Assembly (NCBI GenBank): GCA_964016885.1
Contig: OZ024743.1
Coordinates: 12,028,001 to 12,092,000, forward strand
Direction of reading: 5' to 3'
From: Eledone cirrhosa
Lineage: Eukaryota
Length of the DNA stretch: 64,000 bases
Made by a program: the position numbers and the translations under genes. This document shows positions 24,215 through 57,755 of this stretch, piece after piece. Position 1 is the stretch's first letter; every line of letters starts with the position of its first letter. The notes beneath the pieces are model-generated. The model was not told the DNA's origin. It saw nothing but the letters and a program-made list of their open reading frames with translations, and ran no database searches.

Positions 24215-26414
24215 GAAAAACATTTTAGCCATCACCCAACACCAATCTTGCTGTCACTAACACACATTCACAAAACAAGCCCCCTGCAACAGTCAAAACA
24301 AACCAGCCACCATACTAACCTCCAGATTCTTACTCAATACACAAGGTATCAGCCCATCCATCAATGCACAGAAATGGAAGATCCAATTCATTGAGGATTG
24401 GGTTGGCAACCATCCATTTCACATCCCCTTCTTCATTCTTACTGAGACCCACTATGACAACTCCAGCTTGGAGGCCGAAGTAAGAGTGAGAAATTTCACA
24501 ACCATGCGTGCGGATCGTGTTGGCAGAAGGAAGGGTGGAACTGCTTTTTCCTGCATGATTCCTTTACGGTAGTTGGCAACAAAACATTCTCCAATGGCTA
24601 CTGTGAATCAGTCACTGTGCACAATAAAGCCAATGACCTGACATTAGTTGGGCTCTATAGGCCGCCACAAACACCCATAATCTGCTTCAAAGAATGCCTC
24701 AACAGTATTAAATGCTTTATCAAACGGTGCCATTCTAGCAACATACTTTTGATGGGAGACTTTAATCTACCCTGTGTCGATTGGTATACATGTAGTTTGA
24801 AACCAGGCTCCACAGCCTCAACCACTGACAAAGAGGGTGTCGAGTCACTTCTTGACTTCATGAATGAGTTTTTCTTGTTACAACTTGTCCTTGCACCAAC
24901 GAGGCATCAGAAGAACATTCTGGATCTAGTGTTTAGTAACCACACTAACACTATACATAATATTACAGTGGAAAAAACCCTTCTCTCAGACCATGACATG
25001 GTTCTTTGTAGCCTGAGATTCCACCAACCGAAAGCTAATCCCAGGGTCCTCTTTCCAGCCCGCCCATTTATAACATGGGTCTCTACAATGCCAACTGTGA
25101 TGCAATTATGAACGAACTATCACATGTCGACTGGTCTTTTACACACGCACACACTTCCACCAACATCAAAACATCTTGGCAGATCTTTGTAGACACTGTC
25201 ACAAATATATGTACAAAACACACCCCACCAAAACCTGTGAAAAAAACCAAGTGCAGTATCCCCCAAAACAGAAAAACAATTATCAAAAAAATAAAAAGAA
25301 CAAACAAATGATGACCATCATCAATAACCAGAGAATAGCTGAAGAGAGGTGGGCTATTGAGAAAATAAAACTCAACCCCAAAGTGTTCTTCTAATTCGCT
25401 AAAAAACACAAAGTCACCGTCTCCACTGTTGGCCCCCTAGTTGATGAAAATGGCACACTAGGGGTCATCAATGAGGTGGGTGACCGGACTTGCCTTCAGT
25501 CAGACCTATTGGCTGTTATCCAATGGGCAGAGATGAATAATATGCTGTTGAATGAGGATAAATTTGAAATAAACCACTTTGGAGAAAAGGATGCCCTGAA
25601 ACTACCATACTCTCTTCCTTCGGGTGAAACTCTAGTGGCTTTCAACAACATCAGAGACCTGGGAGTAATTGTGGACAACAATATAAGCTGGGGCACTCAT
25701 ATAAACAGCAAAGTTGATATGGCCCGCAGAATGTGTTCCACGATTCTCAGAACTTTCCAGTCGAGAGATATCCACACTGTTGTCCTTCTCTTCTCCACTT
25801 TGCCCGACCCCACCTTGAATACTGTTGTCCACTGTGGTCAGCCCACACGAAACAATGTATCATAAAAGTTGAAGCACCCCAAAGGTCAATTACAAAAAAG
25901 ATAGTTGGTATGACAGGCCTTGACTATTGGAGTCAATTAGAAAAGCTCAAACTTTATTCTCTTCAACGTCGCCGTGAGCGCTACATTATCTGTATGATGT
26001 GGAAAATATTCTATCAGCTTAGCTCAAATGATGTTGGCATCACCTTTAGTGTACACCCAAGGTTTGGTCCCCGTGCTATCCGCGCACGACAAAAGTCCCA
26101 CTCGCATCACATAACAACAATACGGCACAATTATTTCACCTCAATTGGCCCTGCACTCTTTAACATTACACCAAAACACAACAAAGCAGAGACAGACCCC
26201 ATCAAGTTCAAGATGTCTTTGGATAAATTCCTTCAAGAAATCCCGGATAAGACTCCTACACCCGGATATGCCTCCGTAAACAATAACTCTCTGCTCGAGT
26301 GGGCCACGGTGCCCAAACACTGATTTGAAAGACTTCGCCAGGTCGTGCTATTAAGTTAGACATGGCCTGGGCCAATACTGGCCGAAACCTATCAAAGTTA
26401 TCAAAGTTAAAGTT
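24215..26414 (+). mobile_element. CR1-group LINE, internally deleted (APE endonuclease plus post-RT C-terminus)
   Basis: LTETH, GLYRPP, LMGDFNLP, PTRHQKNILDLVFSN, LSDH, then LQSDL..WAEMNNMLLNEDK, RDLGV, RPHLEYCCPLWS, LYSLQRRRERY; short tandem 3' tail (TATCAAAGT). Confidence 0.85.
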
Positions 26415-31429: not shown

Positions 31430-31860
31430 ATAAGTTGTAATATAATGAAACGAAATTTCATTTCTCACTCTTAGTATGGCACTTACTTAAATGTAAGTAT
31501 GTATGTATACGTACATACATATATGTATACAGACGTACAGTACCATGCATATATATATATATATATATATATACATACAGGTACACATATATATATGTAC
31601 GTATCAGTTTAGCGAACGTTTATTATAACGCCCGCTTTGTCCGTTTGTAAACAAGCAACAGTCTGATTTATGCCATACGGTGTTAAGGCAACCACGTCAC
31701 CTTTTTGTTCAACACTGACACAGGAACGATGTACTAGTTTCAAGCTTGTTAGCTATCATCAGCACCGTATACCCTTCTGCCAGATAGTTGAACGTTCGAA
31801 AGTATATACTTTCCTTATGAAAATTAACGGCTGAGCAGCCTAATTTGCATATCGAGTGGA
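31430..31860 (-). mobile_element. Dispersed, diverged monomer of the 500-bp HHR repeat (HHR at ~31725-31768)
   Basis: Collinear with the 42045-42530 unit; starts at the same ATAAGTTG position after (TA)n. Confidence 0.9.
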
Positions 31861-34932: not shown

Positions 34933-35615
<683 letters not shown>

Positions 35616-37011: not shown

Positions 37012-40000
37012 TAATGGCTGCCCCCTCGTTATCGAGTATGGCCATTGCACGAGAGAAAGAAAAAAAAAAATAATAATAATAATAATAAATTAAAAAAAAA
37101 ATTAAAAAAAGAAATATATATATATACATATACATACACATATACACACACAAACACACACTCACACACACATATACACACACACATACATTAATAACAA
37201 TAATAATAATAATAATCATAACAACAATAATAATAACGACAACAACAATAATAATATACATATACATATATATATACACACACACGCACACACATAAGCA
37301 TATCTACACACACATACACGATAGCAACTAACAGCGCTGCGATCGAATGTGGCTTTTTAGCCCAGCCAATGATCTAAAATGTCTTGCATAGAGTCGGCAA
37401 CCAAAACATTCACTGGGAATAGTCGGCTGTGGTTGGAGTTCGTGTACTTTTGCATGTCGCTTGAGCCCTCCTGCTGATTTACATTCTCTACCACATGTTT
37501 GGCAAGCAAGATGAGTAGCATCTCCAACAGCAGCTTGGTAGTCAACCACTAGTCTTACTTTATGACTGCGAAGATGACTTTCGAATCCAGCTTTGCTTAG
37601 GCAGAGTCTCGCACATACGCTGCATGTCAGCACCATAGGAGGACCCTCGCCGTCTGGAAGTGCAACAGCAATGCCCTTCCTCACATCCCGCTTTACTTTC
37701 TCGTATGCGATTCGAGATGCCTCAAAGGCAACTTTTCCCTCATATACAGTCTTTCTCCATTTATTACGATCCGCAGCAATATTCTCCCATGTATCAGCAG
37801 AGATGTTAGCGTCTTTCAGAGAGGCTTTCAAGGAATCCTTATACCTCTTTTTTGGTTTATGTGGCGGTCGTTTTCCTTTAACCAACTCTCCATAAAAGAG
37901 TTGTTTTGGTATTCTAGAATCCTTCATCCTGGCAAGGTGACCACTCCAACGGAGTCGTTGCTTAAGCACAAGAGCTTCTATACTGTCACACATAGATCTT
38001 TCCAAAATCTCGACATCACTGATGTGGTCCCTCCAGTGAACGCCATGGATCCGTCTGAGACACATCTGATGGAAACGCTCCAATTGCTTAAGGTGGTGTC
38101 GATATGTGACCCAGGTCTCGCAGGCATAAAGAAGACAAGAGAGCACACATGCCCTGTACACCTTTACCTTTGTCCTCCTGCATATATCTCGCCGACCCCA
38201 GAGTCGCCTTTCTAGCTTTCCGAAAGCATCACTTGCTTTCCTAATCCTAAGTGAGATTTCACTGTCAAGGTTGCTGCATCGATTGACAGTGCTTCCCAGG
38301 TAGACAAATTGATCAACCACTCCAAGTCGTTTGCCATACACATAGATGTTTGGTTCAGTGTACTGCTTACCAGGGGCAGGTTGGTACATGACGACGGTTT
38401 TCTTGAGACTGACAGTCAGACCTAGGGCAGTGCAAGCGTCAGAAAATGTATTCAAAATGTGCTGCATATCACTCTCTGTGTGCGCTACAAGATCGCAATC
38501 ATCTGCATACAAGAGGTCTCTTATGATTGATGTAAATACTTTTGTCTTCGCAGCAAAGCGCCTGATGTTAAATATGCTGCCTGAGGTTCGATATCGGATG
38601 TAAACACCATGCTCGCAATTCCTGAATGCAATACAGAAAACCATTGCAAAGTATATGGCAAACAGGGTCGGTGCTGGAATATCCCCCTGTTTCACTCCAT
38701 TTTTTACTGAGATAGGCTCCGACATGTTACCCCCGACATTAACCCAAGTCTTCATGTCGTCATGGAAAGACCTAACTAAAGCAAGGAACTTATCAGGGCA
38801 ACCAAGTTTCTGGAGAACCTTCCATAATGCATCTCTGTTAACAGTATCGAAAGCTTTTGTCAGATCGACAAAAACCTGATACAGATCCAAGCCTTGTTCC
38901 ATGCACTTCTCCTGGAGCTGTCTAGCTGAGAAGATCATATCAGTAATGCCGCGTCCAGCACGAAAACCAGATTGACTTTCAGGAAGAACACAATCTGCAA
39001 TGTGTGTCAGCAGACGGTCCAGAAGCACCCTACATAAAACTTTCCCTACGACAGAAAGCAATGATATACCTCTGTAGTTCCCACAATCGTTCCTGTTACC
39101 CTTTCCCTTGTACAAGACCACCATTACTGCATCTCTCCAGTCCTCAGGTACGGATTCATTAGCCCATATCCTGCCAAACAAAGAGTGCAGATGTTGCAGG
39201 AGTCTCTCACCACCATATTGTAGAAGCTCAGCATGTATGCCATCCATACCTGGAGATCTTCCACTGTTCAGCTTCGAAATAGCCACTGCAACCTCCGTAA
39301 GCGTCGGAGGTTCTGCGAGAGCTACTTTCACAGGACTTTCTGGAATGAGATTGAGGAAATCTTCACTGACGACAGACGGCTGATTCAAAAGATCATCAAA
39401 GTGCTCTTGCCACCTTCGTAGAATTCCTTGTGAGTCACGAAGAAGTTCTTTGCCATCCTTGCTGCGAAGCGATGTCACCAGAGAAGAAAACGGTCCATAA
39501 ACCTCACGCAAGAGACTGTACAACAGCTTTGTGTTATTGGAATCAGACGCAGTTTGTATCTCACCAGCCTTCTCACTCCACCACTGATCCTTCATCTGAG
39601 AAAGAATCCGCCTAACACGTGATTTTACATCCCTGAGTTTCTCATGCAACGTATTCCTCTCCTGTGGTTTTGCCGTCAAGTAGCGTGACAGAGCACGCCT
39701 CTTATCAGCCAACAAGTCTTCTATATGTACATCATTCTCATCAAACCAGTCCTGATGTTTCCTCTGCGCCAATCCCAGAACACGCCTGCCTACATCATAA
39801 ACCGACTTTTTAAGGGTCGGCCAATCCTCACCAAGATCTGCAGCCTGCATCTCTTCTTCCAATGTCCTCTTCATATTTTTATCCTTAAGACGAGCAGCAT
39901 TCAATCTTTTGGGCAGGGCAACACCAGGAGCCCGGATTTTACGTTTAGTGATTAGCTTCACTTTTGCGCGTACCAGGCGGTGGTCCGTCCAGCACTCAGC

Positions 40001-40899
40001 TCCACGAAGAACACGAACACACTGCACATCCTGTCTGTCACGCATCCTGACTAGGACGTAGTCCAAAAGATGCCATTCCTTAGATGCAGGATGCATCCAT
40101 GTGGTCTTGAATTTGTTCTTTTGTTGGAACATGGTGTTGGTAACACACAGATCCAGCTCTTCACACATCTGCAGCAGGAGCATACCATTGCTGTTACACT
40201 TTCCCACCCCATGCCTTCCGATTACATTCCATGTGTTAAAATCCCTACCCACTCTAGCATTAAAGTCACCAAGCACGATGACTTTGTCTGCCTGAGGGAT
40301 ATTTCTTAAAACACCTTTCAAGGCATGGCAAAAGGACACCGTTTCCTCATCGACAGAACTCATAGTTGGAGCATACACACTCACCAGGGTAGCATATCTT
40401 CCCTTGTCCAGCGCAACTCTCATGGACGCTCACTAATCCCTACTGGGAATTCTTCTAATTTGTTCACAAGCACAGTCTTAACAGCAAATCCCACCCCAGC
40501 CTCTCTTCTGGTTCCTTCATCTCTTCCTTTCCAGAAGAATGTATATTCTCCACAAAATTCCGTAAGATGACCATCTCCAGCTAGCCTCGTCTCAGATAAA
40601 GCCACGATGTCAAGATCGTAACGTCGAAGTTCCTTTGCAACAAGAGCGGTCCTTCGTTCAGGACGCCCCAAGGAATCCCTGTCAAGCAGCGTCCGTACGT
40701 TCCAGCAGCCAAGACTAAATGCCTTGTTTGGCTCTATTACAATGGCACGATGACGAGCGGGCCCAGGCTGTGATAACCAGGGTCCCCTGCCCTTATTGCC
40801 AATGATCTGTTTTGTTCCAGAACCTAAATTGCCAATTATCTCTTTTATATTGTTCTGGAACATCATTGAATTGGAAAAAAAAAAAAAAAAAAAAAAAAA

Positions 40900-40950
<51 letters not shown>

Positions 40951-41255
40951 GTACACTATTAATAATTATTAATGCACTCGTGCAATGCCTGTGCGTGACG
41001 AATATTTTTAAAGTGAGGAAAGACTGTGTACTGAGCCAATCCCACCCTCTGAGCGACAGTAGCTATAACCCGAAAAGAAGAAAAGATCAACATCATCGGT
41101 AACTACTGAGCCGCAGGTTTTATGTCGGAGTTAACCCAGTTTCCTGAGATGCCTTCTCCTAGAAGAATGCCCTGACAAGGGCTAGGGGTTCTTCACTCCC
41201 AGTGGTTTAACTGCGCGATCGGGCATCCAGCCCGATTATTTCTATGTCCTCGCGC
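37012..41255 (-). mobile_element. Near-full-length RTE-clade (BovB-like) LINE
   Basis: 5'UTR motif CCTTGTCAGGGCA..CTAGGAGAAGG; APE-RT ORF; 3' hairpin ATGGCC..CTCG-ATAA-CGAG..GCCAT followed by a (TATG)n tail. Confidence 0.95.
37328..40866 (-). CDS. RTE LINE ORF: APE endonuclease, reverse transcriptase and C-terminal C2H2 zinc fingers; one frameshift near 40423
   Basis: WNVRTL, ALSETR, VYAPT, LGDFNARVG, LDYVL, TDH; NYRGISLL, FVDLTKAFD, GVKQGD, LLYADDC, YLGS; CxxC-x12-HxxxH fingers. Confidence 0.93.
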
Positions 41256-41655: not shown

Positions 41656-42160
41656 TTAAACTTTTTTTCTTAAGGCCCGGTCGCGGGTGATGGTGATGGC
41701 GGCGGCGGTAGTGGTGGTGGTGGCAATTGATGTTGTTGTTGTGTTGTGTGCGTGTGTGTTTTGTTATTTTGAGTTGTTTTTTTTTTCTTTTTTTTCCCTT
41801 CCCTTTCTTTTTTTTATCTTTTGATGCCGCTGTTGTTGTTGTTGTTGTAAATGTTCATTTCAGTTCATTCTGAAGCTGTTGTTGCTGTAAACATTAGTGC
41901 CGGTGTTGTTGTTGTAGATGTTGGGGTTGAAATCTGGTCGTTTGCCTGAGTGATGTATATACACACATACACATACATATATATGCAAAAGTTTTATTTA
42001 AAATTGTTGGGTTACAACAAGTAAATATTTTATAACATATATATATAAGTTGAAAAAAATGAAAACGAAATTTCATTTCTCACTCTTAGTATGGCACTTA
42101 CTTAAATGTAAGTATGTATGTATACGTACATACATATATGTATACAGACGTACAGTAGCA

Positions 42161-42234
<74 letters not shown>

Positions 42235-42393
42235 TGCACACAGGTACACATACATATATGCACGCATCAGTTTAGCCGACGTTTATTATAACGCAGCTTT
42301 GTTCGTTTGTTTGTCAACAAACAGAACAGCCTGAATTTATGCCATACGGTGTTAAGGCAACCACGTCACCTTTTTGTTCAACACTGACACAGG

Positions 42394-42672
42394 AACGATG
42401 TACTAGTTTCAAGCTTGTTAGCTATCATCAGCACCGTTTACCCATCTGCCAGATAGTTGAACGTTCGAAAGTATATACTTTCCTTATGAAAATTAACGGC
42501 TGAGCAGCCTAATTTGCATATTGAGTGAGTTAAATCGGTCAGGCATACCGAAAACGATAAGTTGAAAAAAATGAAAACGAAATTTCATTTCTCACTCTTA
42601 GTATGGCACTTACTTAAATGTAAGTATGTATGTATACGTACATACATAAATGTATACAGACGTACAGTAGCA

Positions 42673-42733
<61 letters not shown>

Positions 42734-43162
42734 GTACACATACATATATGCACGGATCAGTTTAGCCGACGTTTATTATAACGCAGCTTTGTTCGTTTGT
42801 TTGTCAACAAACAGAACAGCCTGAATTTATGCCATACGGTGTTAAGGCAACCACGTCACCTTTTTGTTCAACACTGACACAGGAACGATGTACTAGTTTC
42901 AAGCTTGTTAGCTATCATCAGCACCGTTTACCCATCTGCCAGATAGTTGAACGTTCGAAAGTATATACTTTCCTTATGAAAATTAACGGCTGAGCAGCCT
43001 AATTTGCATATTGAGTGAGTTAAATCGGTCAGGCATACCGAAAACGATAAGTTGAAAAAAATGAAAACGAAATTTCATTTCTCACTCTTAGTATGGCACT
43101 TACTTAAATGTAAGTATGTATGTATACGTACATACATATATGTATACAGACGTAGAGTAGCA

Positions 43163-43236
<74 letters not shown>

Positions 43237-43674
43237 TGCACACAGGTACACATACATATATGCACGGATCAGTTTAGCCGACGTTTATTATAACGCAGCT
43301 TTGTTCGTTTGTTTGTCAACAAACAGAACAGCCTGAATTTATGCCATACGGTGTTAAGGCAACCACGTCACCTTTTTGTTCAACACTGACACAGGAACGA
43401 TGTACTAGTTTCAAGCTTGTTAGCTATCATCAGCACCGTTTACCCATCTGCCAGATAGTTGAACGTTCGAAAGTATATACTTTCCTTATGAAAATTAACG
43501 GCTGAGCAGCCTAATTTGCATATTGAGTGAGTTAAATCGGTCAGGCATACCGAAAACGATAAGTTGAAAAAAATGAAAACGAAATTTCATTTCTCACTCT
43601 TAGTATGGCACTTACTTAAATGTAAGTATGTATGTATACGTACATACATAAATGTATACAGACGTACAGTAGCA

Positions 43675-43735
<61 letters not shown>

Positions 43736-44164
43736 GTACACATACATATATGCACGCATCAGTTTAGCCGACGTTTATTATAACGCAGCTTTGTTCGTTT
43801 GTTTGTCAACAAACAGAACAGCCTGAATTTATGCCATACGGTGTTAAGGCAACCACGTCACCTTTTTGTTCAACACTGACACAGGAACGATGTACTAGTT
43901 TCAAGCTTGTTAGCTATCATCAGCACCGTTTACCCATCTGCCAGATAGTTGAACGTTCGAAAGTATATACTTTCCTTATGAAAATTAACGGCTGAGCAGC
44001 CTAATTTGCATATTGAGTGAGTTAAATCGGTCAGGCATACCGAAAACGATAAGTTGAAAAAAATGAAAACGAAATTTCATTTCTCACTCTTAGTATGGCA
44101 CTTACTTAAATGTAAGTATGTATGTATACGTACATACATATATGTATACAGACGTAGAGTAGCA

Positions 44165-44240
<76 letters not shown>

Positions 44241-44678
44241 TGCACACAGGTACACATACATATATGCACGGATCAGTTTAGCCGACGTTTATTATAACGC
44301 AGCTTTGTTCGTTTGTTTGTCAACAAACAGAACAGCCTGAATTTATGCCATACGGTGTTAAGGCAACCACGTCACCTTTTTGTTCAACACTGACACAGGA
44401 ACGATGTACTAGTTTCAAGCTTGTTAGCTATCATCAGCACCGTTTACCCATCTGCCAGATAGTTGAACGTTCGAAAGTATATACTTTCCTTATGAAAATT
44501 AACGGCTGAGCAGCCTAATTTGCATATTGAGTGAGTTAAATCGGTCAGGCATACCGAAAACGATAAGTTGAAAAAAATGAAAACGAAATTTCATTTCTCA
44601 CTCTTAGTATGGCACTTACTTAAATGTAAGTATGTATGTATACGTACATACATAAATGTATACAGACGTACAGTAGCA

Positions 44679-44739
<61 letters not shown>

Positions 44740-45168
44740 GTACACATACATATATGCACGCATCAGTTTAGCCGACGTTTATTATAACGCAGCTTTGTTC
44801 GTTTGTTTGTCAACAAACAGAACAGCCTGAATTTATGCCATACGGTGTTAAGGCAACCACGTCACCTTTTTGTTCAACACTGACACAGGAACGATGTACT
44901 AGTTTCAAGCTTGTTAGCTATCATCAGCACCGTTTACCCATCTGCCAGATAGTTGAACGTTCGAAAGTATATACTTTCCTTATGAAAATTAACGGCTGAG
45001 CAGCCTAATTTGCATATTGAGTGAGTTAAATCGGTCAGGCATACCGAAAACGATAAGTTGAAAAAAATGAAAACGAAATTTCATTTCTCACTCTTAGTAT
45101 GGCACTTACTTAAATGTAAGTATGTATGTATACGTACATACATATATGTATACAGACGTAGAGTAGCA

Positions 45169-45232
<64 letters not shown>

Positions 45233-45670
45233 TGCACACAGGTACACATACATATATGCACGGATCAGTTTAGCCGACGTTTATTATAACGCAGCTTTGT
45301 TCGTTTGTTTGTCAACAAACAGAACAGCCTGAATTTATGCCATACGGTGTTAAGGCAACCACGTCACCTTTTTGTTCAACACTGACACAGGAACGATGTA
45401 CTAGTTTCAAGCTTGTTAGCTATCATCAGCACCGTTTACCCATCTGCCAGATAGTTGAACGTTCGAAAGTATATACTTTCCTTATGAAAATTAACGGCTG
45501 AGCAGCCTAATTTGCATATTGAGTGAGTTAAATCGGTCAGGCATACCGAAAACGATAAGTTGAAAAAAATGAAAACGAAATTTCATTTCTCACTCTTAGT
45601 ATGGCACTTACTTAAATGTAAGTATGTATGTATACGTACATACATAAATGTATACAGACGTACAGTAGCA

Positions 45671-45735
<65 letters not shown>

Positions 45736-45938
45736 GCACACAGGTACACATACATATATGCACGCATCAGTTTAGCCGACGTTTATTATAACGCAGCTTT
45801 GTTCGTTTGTTTGTCAACAAACAGAACAACATGAATTTATGCCATACGGTGTTAAGGCAACCACGTCACCTTTTTGTTCAACACTGACACAGGAACGATG
45901 TACTAGTTTCAAGCTTGTTAGCTATCATCAGCACCGTT
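42394..45938 (-). ncRNA. Eight minimal type I hammerhead ribozymes (42394-42438, 42884-42928, 43396-43440, 43886-43930, 44400-44444, 44890-44934, 45392-45436, 45894-45938)
   Basis: AACGGTG-CTGATGA-tAGCT AACA AGCTt-GAAAC-TA-GTA-CATCGTT; 7-bp stem I, intact core, palindromic stem III ACTAGT, GUA cleavage triplet. Confidence 0.92.
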
Positions 45939-45987
45939 TACCCATCTGCCAGATAGTTGAACGTATATGTACGTGTACCTGTGTGCA

Positions 45988-46031
<44 letters not shown>

Positions 46032-46265
46032 TGCTACTGTACGTCTGTATACATATATGTATGTACGTATACATACATACTTACATTTAAGTAAGTGCCA
46101 TACTAAGAGTGAGAAATGAAATTTCGTTTTCATTTTTTTCAACTTATCGTTTTCGGTATGCCTGACCGATTTAACTCACTCAATATGCAAATTAGGCTGC
46201 TCAGCCGTTAATTTTCATAAGGAAAGTATATACTTTCGAACGTTCAACTATCTGGCAGATGGGTA

Positions 46266-46460
46266 AACGGTGCTGATGATAGCTAACAAGCTTGAAACTA
46301 GTACATCGTTCCTGTGTCAGTGTTGAACAAAAAGGTGACGTGGTTGCCTTAACACCGTATGGCATAAATTCAGGCTGTTCTGTTTGTTGACAAACAAACG
46401 AACAAAGCTGCGTTATAATAAACGTCGGCTAAACTGATGCGTGCATATATGTATGTGTAC

Positions 46461-46521
<61 letters not shown>

Positions 46522-46800
46522 TGCTACTGTACGTCTGTATACATTTATGTATGTACGTATACATACATACTTACATTTAAGTAAGTGCCATACTAAGAGT
46601 GAGAAATGAAATTTCGTTTTCATTTTTTTCAACTTATCGTTTTCGGTATGCCTGACCGATTTAACTCACTCAATATGCAAATTAGGCTGCTCAGCCGTTA
46701 ATTTTCATAAGGAAAGTATATACTTTCGAACGTTCAACTATCTGGCAGATGGGTAAACGGTGCTGATGATAGCTAACAAGCTTGAAACTAGTACATCGTT
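46266..46800 (+). ncRNA. Two minimal HHRs in the inverted part of the array (46266-46310 and 46756-46800)
   Basis: Same sequence read on +; CTGATGA at 46273-46279, predicted cleavage after 46303. Confidence 0.92.
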
Positions 46801-46959
46801 CCTGTGTCAGTGTTGAACAAAAAGGTGACGTGGTTGCCTTAACACCGTATGGCATAAATTCAGGCTGTTCTGTTTGTTGACAAACAAACGAACAAAGCTG
46901 CGTTATAATAAACGTCGGCTAAACTGATGCGTGCATATATGTATGTGTACCTGTGTGCA

Positions 46960-47007
<48 letters not shown>

Positions 47008-49560
47008 TGCTACTGTACGTCTGTATACATATATGTATGTACGTATACATACATACTTACATATATATATATATACACATTCAACAGAGAGTAGAGAGTT
47101 TGACAACAGGTCGATGACTTTAGTCTAGATAGGGTAATGACATATGATGGTGGGGAGATAGTGTAGGAGTTATTGTGGTGGCGGGGGGCAGTGCGATGTA
47201 TCTAGTTTATTTGACCGTTTTCTTCTCTTTGCAAAATTTGAATTTTAGCCATGTTATATTGAGATGTAAGTAAATGTAAAATGTAAAATATAAATAAGGA
47301 TTGCTCTGCTAAAATATACTAAAATATTTGTGTAACTTCCACAAACTGTCGTGACATTCCCGAGTCCAGTGACCAACAAATTGTTGTATTTTGATGTTTC
47401 AGAATACAAAAATTAATTAAAAACTTACCCCACGAAAAGACAGCGTGTGTTGTCCTATCTATAAGCCTCCTCATACATACATACATACATACATACATAC
47501 ATACATACATACATACATACATACATACATACATACATACATGCGAAGAAGAAATTATGCAGTTTGACGTAGTTTATCGTATGCACACATACAAACACAC
47601 ATACACACACATACACACACACGCACATACACATAGATACATGCGAACCCCACATAAAAGCAAATAATAAGGAAATGGGTACACAAAACAAATGTATATT
47701 TATATTATAAATACAAATATTATAATTTAAATTTATATTTAATTTCCGGTTCTATGAATATATTATCAATCATATAAATAGTATTCTTCTGAAAATATAA
47801 AACATTTTTGCTTAAATGTTCACAATAATGATGACATTAATCATTCATATATTCGTTTATTCGTTCGCTCACTCGTAAATCCTTTTTTTTAAAAATTCAA
47901 GTAAGAAACAGCTATAGTGCAATATATGAGATGCATGTGGATATTGATTGTAAAGGAAGGTATAAACGGAAGACTAGTATATGGCTAGCAAAAGAAATGT
48001 TTGGTAAACCTAACTTTCAATAGAATCTTTGATAAACCTAACTTTCAATAGAATCTTTGAGCATAACGAATTCTTGCATGTGACACTTTATTCGAAGCCT
48101 AGAAACACTCATAATTCATATTGCTTGCTTCCTTTGTAGCCGATAATAGAACCTGGGCTAACGACCAGGGCTGCTAAGAAATAGCAATAAAATCTCCATC
48201 AAATAGTGATATAATGTGGCAAATTGGCACAGTTCTTAGAGTATAGGAACAAATTACCTAATGATATTTGTTTCAGGCTTCTATACGCCGAGTTCAAATC
48301 ATGTCAATTTTCCATTTCGTCATTTCTCGGTCGATAAAATGTATTTTTATAGGTAGCAGGATGCAACATACGCATGTGGGAGTTGTTGCTACTGGGGTGT
48401 ATAAAACATGTTAGCAGGCGACAAATATAACGAAGAGAAGGAAACTGTAACTAAATGAATCGTGACGGATGAGAGCTACCTTTCTAATAATTTAATAGGG
48501 ATTCCAATTAAGACTAATCACTATAGTCAGATCTAGTTTGAAGTATATAAGGCTACCCTTTCTTGCGTCGCTGCTAATAATAATATTCAAATCATGTACT
48601 TTAAACATGTATATCAGATCTTTTCTAACGTCAACTATGCAATAGTTGGAGAATTTTATAGGTAACTGCTAAGATTTGTGAGCTGGTGATTTTCTTGATG
48701 GTGTCTCATATAAATAGTTCGATTAGTTGAGACTCATAGAAACATTGGATAGTGGGGCACATTCGTGTTTATCCCAGTTGGAATCGTCTTAATTCATTAG
48801 GCTGTAAACCCCTCCTCTGCATCAAACATGTAATGAGTTTGCTAGTCTCAAGACGTTATCTGTTAACACAGACAGTTATTGCCATAACGTGTTGTCCTCT
48901 TCCATGTGACTCTTCTTAACAAATCAAAATCGATCTAACCGGTGTTTCCCACCGATCCACAGGATGTCCCTTCATCAACTGAACCTTTGTCGCTTGAACG
49001 AGCAAACCACCATATCTTTGGTAACTGCGAGAAAAAAGTTTCCAAATAGTTTCGTATTTATTAATATTCACTACACATTACTTGTTTCACCTCTAAACTA
49101 CCAAACGTAGGAAGAATATATTTTGTTACGAAGAAAGTAAACAAACTATTTATTGGCGCAATCAAATTTACATAAAAGTTCAACGTCATCGACCGGAATA
49201 TAAATACAACTACCAATGCAACTAGATTAAGAATGTGGATAGGGAAATCATATATAATAGCTTACATCTCAACTGTCAAATGTAAAAAAAGATATACGTC
49301 CTCATTAACTTTGTCAATCTTGTACCATTACATAAATAATTTTATACCAGTAACAGTTTGCTTACATTTTTCATTACAAGATATATTCTTCTTAACAGTA
49401 ACGGTTCAGAGGTGAAGTAAGGGAGCACTGATGGATATAAATAATAAGAAACTAGACTAACACTATCTCACTAATCTACCGAAATTTCTATGATTTGTAC
49501 ACATAGTAGATATACGTTTATCAAATATATCATATATGATTTTATATATACATAATTATT

Positions 49561-54315: not shown

Positions 54316-57300
54316 ATGGCCAATATAAGAGTTGGATGTGTGAATGCACGCGGCTTGGGGATGTCCTGGAAACAGGGCAAACTCTTAAATGACCTCAGGT
54401 CGCACAGAGTGGATGTAATGGTTATTTGCGAGTCCAGGATCAGCAGCGAGCGCCAACTGGCCCCCATCTTCGACGACTTTGAGATCTACGCATCTCTCTG
54501 TCAGCCGAGGGGTGGGGGGTGGGGTTGTCGTTCTGCTGCGAAAATACCTGGGTCTCGCCACACAGAAGGTACACCTGGACCCGGAGGGTCGACTGGTGGT
54601 TTTAGACGTCGGCAGTGGTGAAGGTGGAGCTTTCAGGCTGGTGGCAGCGTATGCCCCATCGGGGACACCGCGACCAGACTTCTTCCGACGCCTGGAGAAT
54701 TTCCTGGGAACGTCTCGCTCCTTGCTTTTAGTGGGGGACTGGAATGGTATCCTGGATGCACGTTGGGACTATGTAGGGGCATGTCCCGATAGAGGGGGTG
54801 TAACAGCCTCAAACGATTAATCGGCCGATTTGATCTGGCCGATAGATATCGACTGGATTTTCCGACTGTGCCACGGTGGACGTGGAGTAATCGCAGTGGA
54901 ACATCCAGGTCGTACCTAGATAGGTTCCTAGTTAGAAATAAGGATAGGGACATATTAAGCTGTCCACGAATGTTCATGGTTGACTATTCGGATCACAAGT
55001 TGTTGACCGGAGTGGTCAACCTTGATAGAACTCATAGACAGGGACCCGGTTACTGGAAGCTAAACTTGTCTTTACCGACAATCAAAGCTTACAGTAAGCG
55101 GATTAGCACACTAGTTAAGCAGCGTTTGACGGGGGCAATTGTCAACAGCAGGTGGTGGGGCTCTCTCAAGAGAGAAATTAGAATAGAATCGATAGGTTTT
55201 AGTCGGGAATTAGCATCAGATAGGAATAGAACTGAAAGGGAATTAACAAATAGAGTAGAAGAGGCGATTAGGAGTGGCAACGTGGCCGGCGTGCTGGCGT
55301 CAAGAACGGCCCTAGACCAGTTCTTTGATGCGAAGCACGAGGGCTGCGTTGTCAGGAGTAAAATACGTGCTCTGGGTAACGAGGGAGCCAAAGCTGTTAG
55401 CTGGGCCCGAGTGACAGAGGCAAAAAGTGGAAACAAGTCCACGATTCGGTCTTTGAAGGACCAGGATGGACGCGTGATCCTTGAACCTGAGCGGATGAGC
55501 GCGGCCTTTCAACGGCGCTTTGCACGACTGTTCGGGAGGGGCGGCGGGCCGGGTGGGGCCATGGATTTCGGTCCATACCTCGACGGTCTGGCGCGGCTCT
55601 CGGACGGGGAGGCGAAGTCCTGCGAGAGGCCGATTTCAGCCTCTGAAATAGGGAAAGCGCTGAGCCAATGCGGCAAACGCAAATCTCCGGGTCTCGATGG
55701 TCTACCATACGAACTTTATGTAGCGATGCCGGGCTTGTTCTCCGGTCTCCTCGAGGCGGGTCTACTGCAACTGGCAACAGAACGGGAGAATTCCCAGTTC
55801 TGTGACCAAGGGCGTAGTCACGCTGGTGAGGAAGGACGAGAACAAGGGGGATGACATAGATAACTTCAGGCCCATAACTCTGCTAAACACAGAGTTAAAG
55901 ATTTTGGCCAAGGTGTTAGCGAAGAGGTTGGCGCTTGTCGTCGGGAACCTGGTGGGAGAAGCGCAGACATACGCAATCCCGTCCAGGTCCATACACGACA
56001 ACCTCCACCTCATGCGATACATCGTAGAGAGGGTAGGGAACGAACCCGGCTTTGGTGGGGCCCTGATCAACTTGGATCAATCTAAAGCGTTCGATAGGGT
56101 TGACCATCGGTACCTGGATGCGGTGCTCGCGGCGGCAGGCTTCCGACCCGTTTTCAGGGGCTGGATTGCTGCAATGCACAGCAGCAACACCTGCTCGAGG
56201 GTCAAGGTGAACGGCTACCTCTCAGAGCCGTTCCAAATCACGCGATCCATTCGACAGGGATGCCCTCTCTCCTCCCTCCTGTATGTGCTGGCTCTCGAGC
56301 CACTACTGAGGAAGCTGGAGCTGTTGCAGGGCATCCCCTTGGAACCGGGATTGCGGAAAGCGGTGTCGGCCTACGCCGATGACGTGACAGTAATGGTGTC
56401 GTGCGCCTCGGAAATCGGGCAGATCGGCACCTTACTGGAGGAATATGAAAGGTTCACAGGAGCCAAGCTGAACCGGGACAAGTCCGTCGGTTTGCAACTC
56501 GGGACGTGGAGGGGGCAAAACGATGCCCTCCGACGGCATCGTCGGACGCTGGACGGAGGGACCGGTGAAGCTGCTCGGGGTCTGGTTCGGACCGGACCTC
56601 CAGGTGGAGAAAAACTGGGACGAGGTAACGGGCAAGGTGTTTGCACTCGCCCAGAAGTGGGCCGAGTGCAAACTATCCCTGAAAGGTCGAACGGAGGTGG
56701 CGAACGCTTATATAGCGTCCGTCATCTACTACCGCTTGACCGTCGTGCCTTGCCCAGAGAAAACACTCGCCAAAATGGAGCGCGCGCTCTTCCGATTTCT
56801 TTGGAAGAAGCGGGCTCCTTTGGTGAGAAGATCCATCTGCTGTCAACACCCTTCGAACGGAGGGCTGGGGATGCCGTGGCTGACGATGCGTAGACACGCA
56901 TTAAGGCTACGGCCCCTCCAGGTATTCCTGACCGGTCAGCCGGTGTGGGCCCTGTTTGTGAGGCGAGCCTTTCCCAGACTCGTCTCACTCACCGAGCTGC
57001 AATCCTGGATCAAGCAAAGACCGAGAAAAATGGGCGACTGGCACATTGAATGTGCCCAGGCGCTCACGGCCCTCTGGCAAGCGGATCCGGCAATCAGTGG
57101 AGACTCAACCTCAACATTCTATAGAGGGTTGGTGCGCAGTAAGTGCGACGACGCTCTCGGACAGGCTCTGGGCATGGAGGAAGACGAGCTGCCCAGTCTG
57201 TTCGGTAGGACGTTTGGCCCGGGACCGATGGACAACTTCCAAAAGTCCCTGGCTTGGCAATGTTACCGAGGAGCTCTACCCGTTCGGGACAAGCTCTACA

Positions 57301-57755
57301 GACACGGGCGCCCGGGTAGGGACCCCTCGAAGAAGATCTGTCCAAGATGCGTGCGTGACGAGGAAACCGTCGCACACGCATTCGTACACTGCCCGGGCGT
57401 TGCTGACCTGTGGGGCTATGTAGAACGACTACTGTCGCGGGTGGGACCAATCCGGTTGACCACCGAGAACATTGTCACAATCAAACCGCCTCCCCCTTTC
57501 AAAAACGAAGGAGAGGCGGTTTTCCTCTGTGTGATAGCCATGGCGAAAGAAGTTGTATGGTGGACAAGGTTGAAAGGGCTGAGGTCAGACACCTATCTCT
57601 CCGGCCAACAAGTGGTCTTTTTTTTCAAGTACCACTTTAGAAGAAGGATCAGAATGGAGAGAGAGGTGCTGTACCCCAGCAAGTTTTATGAAAGATGGGT
57701 GAAAGTAGCGAGAATGGCCCGAGTGAATGGGCCTTCTCTCTATATCAGCCTGTAG
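54316..57755 (+). CDS. Tx1/L1 ORF2 (APE-RT-CCHC) with four frameshifts
   Basis: VNARGL, ICESR, AYAP, VGDWN, SYLDRF, SDH, GPGYWKLN, KSPGLDGLPYE, NFRPITLLN, LDQSKAFDRV, RQGCPLS, AYADDV, CPRC...ETVAHAFVHC. Confidence 0.9.

What the first reader, a model, noticed from the sequence alone, without database searches (positions are those of the whole stretch)
42045..45964. Array monomers alternate A/B, implying a ~1-kb dimeric template
Seen: the marker CATATATG versus CATAAATG alternates strictly through units 1-8 and continues alternating in the inverted units. Units 3-8 also alternate GTAGAGTAG/CACGGATC versus GTACAGTAG/CACGCATC. HHR spacings are 490, 512, 490, 514, 490, 502, 502. Inference: the amplified unit was a two-monomer molecule, which fits rolling-circle copying of a dimeric circle. 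A dimer is also what the palindromic stem III needs. Unequal crossing-over of a DNA dimer is the alternative.
Basis: partly seen in the sequence, partly recalled or inferred. Interest (0 to 1): 0.72.

Follow-up and report, generated by a model that had tools for sequence, protein, structure and literature searches.

The report
Alternating retrozyme array, two-layer origin
Eleven near-identical copies of a 0.5-kb repeat carrying a predicted self-cutting RNA motif alternate between two versions in both arms of a mirror-image insertion, which likely means that the RNA copied into the genome already held two different copies, and that later DNA duplications likely added further pairs to one arm.

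Summary
The alternation is real. The T/A marker alternates through all 8 direct and 3 inverted units, and the TA-tract type follows it in 10 of 11. The array is one insertion of a hammerhead retrozyme family (10,391 exact core copies). Its two diverging arms end at two fixed sites 58 nt apart, as in Penelope-like elements; this scan had already noted that geometry in sister families. One dimer circle read round and round does not fit: two C>G markers sit only in units 2-7 of the long arm, so DNA-level 2-unit duplication after insertion probably built part of the array. Such partial higher-order repeats are common at other loci. What remains is a layer shared in phase by both arms. It is seen with two markers only here (1 of 22 insertions readable on both arms). 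A heterodimeric RNA circle is the likeliest source (0.42), ahead of arm-to-arm conversion (0.28) and a linear transcript of an already alternating array (0.2). The palindromic stem III argues against stable dimer circles, not for them. No reads verified the array.

The parts
42045..45964 (-). Long arm, 7.8 units of 490-514 bp; RNA sense on the minus strand; RNA 3' end at the left, at the family's fixed 'long' end (unit position 334 counted from the hammerhead cut site)
45964..47065 (+). Short inverted arm, 2.2 units (A, B, A); RNA 3' end at the right, at the family's fixed 'short' end (unit position 276)
42045..42102 (-). 58-nt tail: present at the end of the long arm, missing at the end of the short arm
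   Evidence: 334 against 276; compared with the PLE tail in PMC11167929 and PMC8557442
42394..42438 (-). Type I hammerhead of unit 1: 7-bp stem I, CUGAUGA, 4-bp stem II, GAAAC, palindromic ACUAGU stem III; predicted cut between 42401 and 42400. Same motif in all eight units of this arm (predicted cuts next to 42400, 42890, 43402, 43892, 44406, 44896, 45398, 45900)
   Evidence: sequence; (Rfam Hammerhead_HH9 18.5 bits, E 0.027, below the gathering score of 52)
46266..46310 (+). Hammerhead in the short arm (second copy 46756-46800)
42137..47031 (.). Layer 1: T/A marker and TA-tract type, alternating on both arms (B allele at 42649, 43651, 44655, 45647, 46545)
   Evidence: the exact B word has 11 genome hits, 5 here and 6 elsewhere; 5 of those 6 lie in units with other-subfamily changes, the sixth (L054) in a poorly parsed unit flanked by such units
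42755..45263 (.). Layer 2: C>G markers confined to the long arm (43155, 44157, 45161; 42755, 43267, 44271, 45263)
   Evidence: the second marker has 5 genome hits, 4 here; the first has 43 hits across the genome
45829..45831 (+). Two changes private to unit 8
45960..45970 (.). Inversion junction (long arm stops at unit position 427, short arm at about 143)
42037..42046 (.). Left (TA)n flank; the right flank 47061-47074 is also (TA)n; a target-site duplication cannot be told from the microsatellite

Best explanation
The array alternates between two unit types on both arms of one inverted insertion, likely because a Penelope-type reverse transcriptase copied a circular RNA of two slightly different units from both sides of a break, after which DNA duplications of two units at a time likely lengthened the long arm. 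Steps: (1, shown) a non-coding hammerhead repeat of over 10,000 copies; (2, shown) two diverging arms ending at two fixed sites 58 nt apart in (TA)n; (3, inferred from PMC11167929) these are the two internal start sites of a PLE reverse transcriptase acting in trans; (4, inferred) both starts fell in an A unit of an A-B template, giving A-B-A-B and A-B-A; (5, inferred) the template was a dimer circle, made by one skipped cleavage or by ligation of two monomers; (6, inferred) two C>G changes then arose in an inner A unit, and about two 2-unit DNA duplications made units 3-8, with one short conversion into unit 2. Dimer templates would be a minority route: most long young insertions are uniform.
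For: Both outer units are A and both next units are B, with two concordant markers. The long arm must have held at least A-B-A-B before any 2-unit duplication could act (geometry; inference). The insertion is very young (0.5 private changes per kb), which leaves little time for a chain of conversions. The smallest-loop hairpin register would pair inverted A with direct B, the opposite of what is seen. Outer ends fall one at each fixed site in 54 of 83 untruncated arm pairs; 5 have both ends in one class and 24 were nested or mis-parsed. Junction ends do not pile up at the cut site (5 of 140 at positions 1-12, about 3.4 expected), so templates are circular or uncut. Linear and circular dimers form as minor products of RtcB ligation in vitro (PMC7229834). 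Layer 2: partial lag-2 sharing at L075, L071, L031, L131 and a nested 2-then-8 repeat in one arm of a 31-unit array show that DNA-level multi-unit duplication acts on these arrays. ORFs with RT and GIY-YIG matches exist in the genome.
Against: No source locus with the B unit was found in this subfamily in the assembly. A-unit TA runs differ by arm (32, 32, 33, 27 against 19, 17), while a contraction of 40% or more was seen in only 1 of 23 units of comparable young arrays. B units have exactly (AT)25 on both arms, as a recent conversion would leave. Cross-arm sharing also occurs out of phase (L112+L095, two SNPs and a TA length), so in-phase sharing is not the only kind. Only this locus, and L069 with one SNP, share a derived state at matched index among 41 insertions with power, against 166 discordant sites. 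A dimer circle carries two hammerheads and is predicted to be able to cut itself (PMC4209133). A circle and a linear transcript of an alternating source give the same DNA. No partner PLE was identified (32 stretches around GIY-YIG hits).
Confidence: 0.42

Rival explanations
1. All in DNA: a uniform (monomer-templated) insertion gained the B changes in one unit; 2-unit duplications spread them in the long arm, and one arm-to-arm conversion put B into the short arm.
For: Needs no missing source locus. Uniform arms are the rule in young long insertions (L171 with 9+9 pieces, L179, L114+L104, L056+L106+L115, L097). Lag-2 sharing confined to part of one arm is common. The identical (AT)25 on both arms and the arm-specific A lengths fit. 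An out-of-phase cross-arm case exists.
Against: Needs about four more events in an array with almost no other mutations, in a register with a 700-nt rather than a 200-nt loop, and by chance in phase. Cross-arm shared SNP states are rare: 7 states in 5 of 70 insertions against 1.39 expected from recurrence; only two cases are robust.
Confidence: 0.28
2. The template was a long uncut linear transcript of a source array that had already become an A/B higher-order repeat in DNA, primed at two places (twin priming).
For: Read as one RNA, the 11 units alternate without a break across the junction, with a 150-nt gap, and A-unit TA runs form a gradient (17, 19, 27, 33, 32, 32). Uncleaved RNA is the main substrate of a PLE in vitro (PMC11167929). 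The minimum-energy fold does not form the active hammerhead. Alternating arrays exist as possible sources.
Against: Such a source is absent from the assembly, and long arms are rare (one run of 4 or more same-strand hits among the first 100 core hits listed). Matched-index sharing, which heterogeneous linear templates would leave often, is seen in 2 of 41 insertions.
Confidence: 0.2
3. The number of A/B pairs is inflated by mis-assembly (reads overlapped two units out of register).
For: Units 3-4 and 5-6 differ by one TA repeat only. No reads or contigs spanned the array.
Against: Units 1, 2, 7, 8 and the short arm each have distinct marker sets, so the alternation itself survives; the ends match the family's fixed sites.
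Confidence: 0.07
4. One reading: all 11 units were copied from one dimer circle with no later change in unit number.
For: T/A marker in phase everywhere.
Against: Predicts six identical A and five identical B units; the two C>G sites depart from this in seven places, all in the long arm, which would need the same two errors repeated.
Confidence: 0.03

Closest known systems
Metazoan non-LTR retrozymes (Cervera and de la Pena 2020, PMC7229834: passages and part 4 of 6 read; Li, Clavereau and Pollet 2026, bioRxiv 10.64898/2026.07.22.740005: part 1 of 5 and passages read)
   Same: Non-coding tandem units, each with a type I hammerhead with a short palindromic helix III; low GC; thousands of dispersed copies; proposed PLE mobilisation through circular RNA.
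   Different: Unit of about 490 nt with an internal TA tract (170-400 nt RNAs reported); two diverging arms; unit-level alternation. The parts read propose monomer circles as templates and do not discuss dimeric templates or higher-order repeats.
Penelope-like elements (Frangieh et al. 2024, PMC11167929: parts 1-2 of 4 read; Craig et al. 2021, PMC8557442: passages; Cervera and de la Pena 2014, PMC4209133: passages)
   Same: Inverted copy joined at the 5' side, tail on one end only, two internal start sites, AT-rich or (TA)n target, both strands extended, hammerhead in the repeat.
   Different: No ORF; tail of 58 nt rather than 30-40; both arms are multi-unit.
Higher-order repeats of satellite DNA (general knowledge, recalled; no paper read for this)
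   Same: Variants shared by units two or more apart, nested periods (2 within 8 at one locus), confined to part of an array.
   Different: Here they arise in very young, dispersed retroposon insertions of 5-30 units; at this locus the period-2 layer crosses an inversion made at insertion.

Membership tests
Non-LTR retrozyme | Head-to-tail units each with a type I hammerhead | tested here: met
   Core and stems in all 10 copies; weak Rfam HH9 match below gathering; no match at gathering
Non-LTR retrozyme | No protein coding; low GC | tested here: met
   No ORF of 150 aa or more between 40965 and 50702; GC 0.33
Non-LTR retrozyme | Dispersed, high copy number | tested here: met
   10,391 exact 36-nt core matches, 0 for the reversed control
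Non-LTR retrozyme | Self-cleavage of the transcript | not testable with these tools
   Predicted minimum-energy folds do not show the active core
Non-LTR retrozyme | Expression as linear and circular RNA | not testable with these tools
   No RNA holder listed
PLE-mobilised insertion | Inverted arm plus tail on one end (two fixed RT start sites) | tested here: met
   334/276 ends here and in 54 of 83 untruncated pairs
PLE-mobilised insertion | AT-rich or (TA)n target | tested here: met
   Both flanks of this insertion are (TA)n; not tallied for other loci
PLE-mobilised insertion | Shared pLTR or tail with an autonomous partner | tested here: inconclusive
   RT and GIY-YIG ORFs exist; among 32 stretches around GIY-YIG hits, L214 and L213 hold family copies, as chance could give; no tandem pLTR link seen
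Autonomous PLE | RT plus GIY-YIG ORF | tested here: not met
   No ORF in the array
Dimer-circle rolling copy (strict) | Perfect period 2 at every marker on both arms | tested here: not met
   Met for T/A and, bar unit 8, the TA type; not met for the two C>G markers or TA lengths
Dimer-templated insertion (with later change) | Derived state shared at matched index on both arms | tested here: met
   cannot separate circle from linear multimer or conversion
DNA-level higher-order repeat | Variants shared at lag 2 in part of one arm only | tested here: met
   C>G markers in units 3, 5, 7

The most novel reading that the evidence does not exclude
This insertion is a genomic fingerprint of a heterodimeric 1-kb circular RNA on which a Penelope-type reverse transcriptase primed twice in the same unit and ran round in register from both sides of the break. 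Dimer RNA may also drive the later 2-unit expansions, seeding higher-order satellite repeats directly from RNA.
Probability: 0.35. Interest if true: 0.62.

Novelty: new member of a known kind. Interest (0 to 1): 0.42.

Why it matters
The circular-template route of retrozyme and PLE insertion is proposed but not shown in the papers read. Uniform arrays cannot tell a circle from a uniform linear multimer; an array whose two arms carry the same A/B phase can, once its source or its population alleles are found, so this locus is a rare test case. The survey also shows higher-order repeats forming within very young retroposon insertions, a small model of satellite birth. It warns that alternation inside one arm is no evidence for a dimeric RNA.

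Tried and rejected
Search for the source locus by the B word and by the second C>G word: none found in this subfamily. Public data: no RNA holder listed; contigs and RAD reads laid on the left flank and on one unit were swamped by other repeat copies and spanned nothing, so neither the empty site nor the private letters were verified. Idea that arms stop at the hammerhead cut site: rejected after exact extension (retracted in the notebook). Idea that DNA steps of two units are specially favoured: the discovery set supports it (31 arms without the window: lag 2 73 observed against 38.6, lag 1 51 against 52.5, lag 3 15 against 27; in 24 arms after dropping four arms of one repeated cluster and three of one giant array: 27, 20, 3, parity P 0.034). 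Geometric step-size models fitted poorly (P at most 0.027, thresholds set after seeing the data). But that set was partly found with alternating queries, a few patterns come from nested older copies, and a hold-out of 7 arms picked by a subfamily word showed no lag-2 SNP or indel sharing (lags 1, 4, 5, 5), so it is left open. RNA editing as the origin of the markers: none is A>G in RNA sense. A tree of the units was not built: three shared SNPs and one tract type give only a haplotype table. A nucleosome explanation for 2-unit steps was considered and not tested. The partner PLE was not found. Four paper searches (titles and abstract starts only) listed nothing on alternating retrozyme arrays or dimeric templates; supplements were not read, and subscription papers are not covered.

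Full report
1. Observation. The stretch 42045-45964 holds 7.8 head-to-tail units of 490-514 bp, followed directly by 2.2 inverted units to 47065. With the TA tract set aside, the units differ at three shared sites and a few private ones. The T/A marker alternates through all eight direct units and continues T, A, T in the inverted arm. The TA tract follows it in 10 of 11 units. The two C>G markers occur in units 3, 5, 7, one of them also in unit 2, and nowhere else. Strict alternation has a chance of 0.029 over 8 units and 0.002 for a given phase over 11.

2. What the repeat is. Each unit carries on the minus strand a type I hammerhead: 7-bp stem I, CUGAUGA, 4-bp stem II, GAAAC and the palindrome ACUAGU as stem III (sequence). 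Rfam finds nothing at gathering score and a weak HH9 match at E 0.027. The minimum-energy folds of the isolated motif, the monomer circle and the dimer circle all pair the core into an inactive form. There is no ORF of 150 aa. The 36-nt core has 10,391 exact matches in the 3.0-Gb genome; a word typical of this subfamily has 130. This fits the non-LTR retrozymes of PMC7229834 and bioRxiv 10.64898/2026.07.22.740005. Cleavage and expression were not testable.

3. How it was inserted. Counting from the cut site, the outer ends lie at unit positions 334 and 276, RNA 3' ends outward, both running into (TA)n. Of 92 diverging arm pairs parsed, 9 were truncated by the fetch; of the other 83, 54 have one end at each site, 5 have both in one class and 24 were nested or mis-parsed. 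A PLE protein starts reverse transcription at two internal sites that bound the 'tail', extends both DNA strands and prefers AT-rich DNA (PMC11167929); inverted copies with a tail on one end are typical of PLEs (PMC8557442). I infer PLE mobilisation in trans. ORFs with RT and GIY-YIG matches exist, but no partner sharing the repeat was found in 32 stretches around GIY-YIG hits. Earlier notes of this scan describe the same geometry in sister families; I had measured it here before reading them. Junction-side ends show no stop at the cut site (5 of 140 at positions 1-12), so templates are circular or uncut.

4. The strict dimer-circle reading fails. It predicts six identical A units and five identical B units. 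Instead unit 1 and the short-arm A units lack both C>G letters, unit 2 has one of them, and A-unit TA runs are 32, 32, 33, 27 in the long arm but 19, 17 in the short arm. The second C>G word has 5 genome hits, 4 of them here, so it is local. The simplest account is that both letters arose in an inner A unit and were multiplied by about two 2-unit DNA duplications, with a short conversion into unit 2 (inference). Other loci show this process plainly. In L075 one pair of units shares five SNPs and the interleaved pair one to two, while outer units and the other arm share none of them, and total divergence is similar. L071 has nested lag-2 sharing. A 31-unit arm has one SNP at indices 2, 6, 8, 10, 14, 16, 18, 22, 24 and an insertion at 3, 11, 19, 25: a period of 2 inside a period of 8, in one arm only. 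So alternation within one arm is no evidence for a dimeric RNA. Whether 2-unit steps are favoured stays open: lag 2 was enriched in 31 discovery arms (73 against 38.6) and geometric models fitted badly, but a hold-out of 7 arms showed lags 1, 4, 5, 5 only.

5. What remains: the layer shared by both arms. Both outer units are A and both next units are B, at two markers. Among 59 clean two-armed insertions, 41 had at least 100 informative bases at matched index; a derived state was shared there only in this locus and, with one SNP, in L069, against 166 discordant sites. Among the 70 clean insertions of the enlarged set, 22 had the TA tract read in two or more units on both arms; by inspection only this one alternates in phase at two markers, and the longest young ones are uniform. 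Cross-arm shared SNP states number 7, in 5 of 70 insertions, against 1.39 expected by recurrence; the two robust cases are this one (in phase) and L112+L095 (out of phase). Uniform, probably monomeric, templates are therefore the rule and this locus is an exception.

6. Three ways to get B into both arms. A dimer circle needs only a source with one changed unit and one skipped cleavage or a two-monomer ligation; circular dimers appear as minor ligation products in vitro (PMC7229834). It explains the phase and needs few events in a very young insertion (0.5 private changes per kb), but not the arm-specific TA lengths (a contraction of 40% or more in 1 of 23 comparable units). Arm-to-arm conversion needs no source and explains the identical (AT)25, but needs more events and the larger-loop register. 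A linear transcript of an already alternating source explains the unbroken alternation across the junction and the TA gradient, and uncleaved RNA is the main PLE substrate in vitro, but such sources are rare. For both template models no source was found: of the six other B-word hits, five lie in units with other-subfamily changes and one in a poorly parsed unit among such units. My odds are 0.42, 0.28 and 0.2; these are judgements, not computed values.

7. The stem III argument points the other way. A short palindromic helix III makes single hammerheads slow and pairs of them active, which is thought to allow cleavage of multimers and spare monomer circles (PMC4209133, passages; Forster 1988 seen only as a citation there). 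A dimer circle holds both partners and is predicted to be the less stable species, in line with its rarity here.

8. Limits. The array was not verified by reads. The loci are a sample of about 150 places out of thousands, drawn from capped hit lists, and partly by similarity to alternating arrays. Variant calls come from pairwise alignment to one reference unit, with the TA tract and the poly-T run masked. Four paper searches listed nothing on alternating retrozyme arrays; only listings were seen for most papers, and no supplements were read.

9. Verdict. Observation confirmed; interpretation partly supported. A new member of a known kind, with one uncommon and testable feature: the same A/B phase on both arms. 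Interest 0.42.

Noticed in passing
G000:C7:76110875-76125480 (L186, L111, L092): 31-unit arm of a very young subfamily with a nested higher-order repeat (period 2 within period 8, about three copies), opposite a one-unit arm.
   Followed up: partly
G000:C2:330828800-330839750 (L177, L178): 20-piece arm with a variant at indices 2, 6, 11 and short TA runs at 3, 7, 9, 12: periods of 4-5.
   Followed up: partly
L112+L095 (G000:C2:317295800-317300700): Two SNPs and a 5-repeat TA run shared between the outer unit of one arm and an inner unit of the other, out of phase (the next inner unit shares the SNPs only); unexplained.
   Followed up: partly
L171 (G000:C1:84357840-84365735): Two arms of 9 pieces each with a single private SNP in about 7.9 kb: a near-perfect case of a uniform template copied on both sides.
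   Followed up: partly
L074:1184-2051: The two outer units of one arm belong to another subfamily than the inner six: nested insertion or template switch.
   Followed up: no
G000:C4:212915000-212966000 (L087, L088, L094, L096) and C2:369404000-369417600 (L151, L152): Old, long arrays repeated in blocks, with units that have lost half the monomer at the TA tract: retrozyme arrays turning into satellite.
   Followed up: partly
window 31430-31858 (-) and 35271-35577 (-): Two further partial copies of the family, one with an intact hammerhead core.
   Followed up: no
window 37328-40965 (-): LINE-type ORF of 1033 aa with RT and endonuclease matches, its 5' part in another frame; further RT remains at 55724-57755 (+) and an endonuclease piece at 24458-25111 (+).
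   Followed up: partly
L203:2809-5622 (-), L204:1488-4019 (+), L205:1275-4562 (+): Open frames of 938, 844 and 1096 aa with RT matches that contain GIY-YIG hits: candidate intact PLEs; my hammerhead pattern found no match in these loci.
   Followed up: partly
window 41998-42043: The left flank is itself a high-copy repeat; other copies continue without the (TA)n in which the array sits.
   Followed up: no
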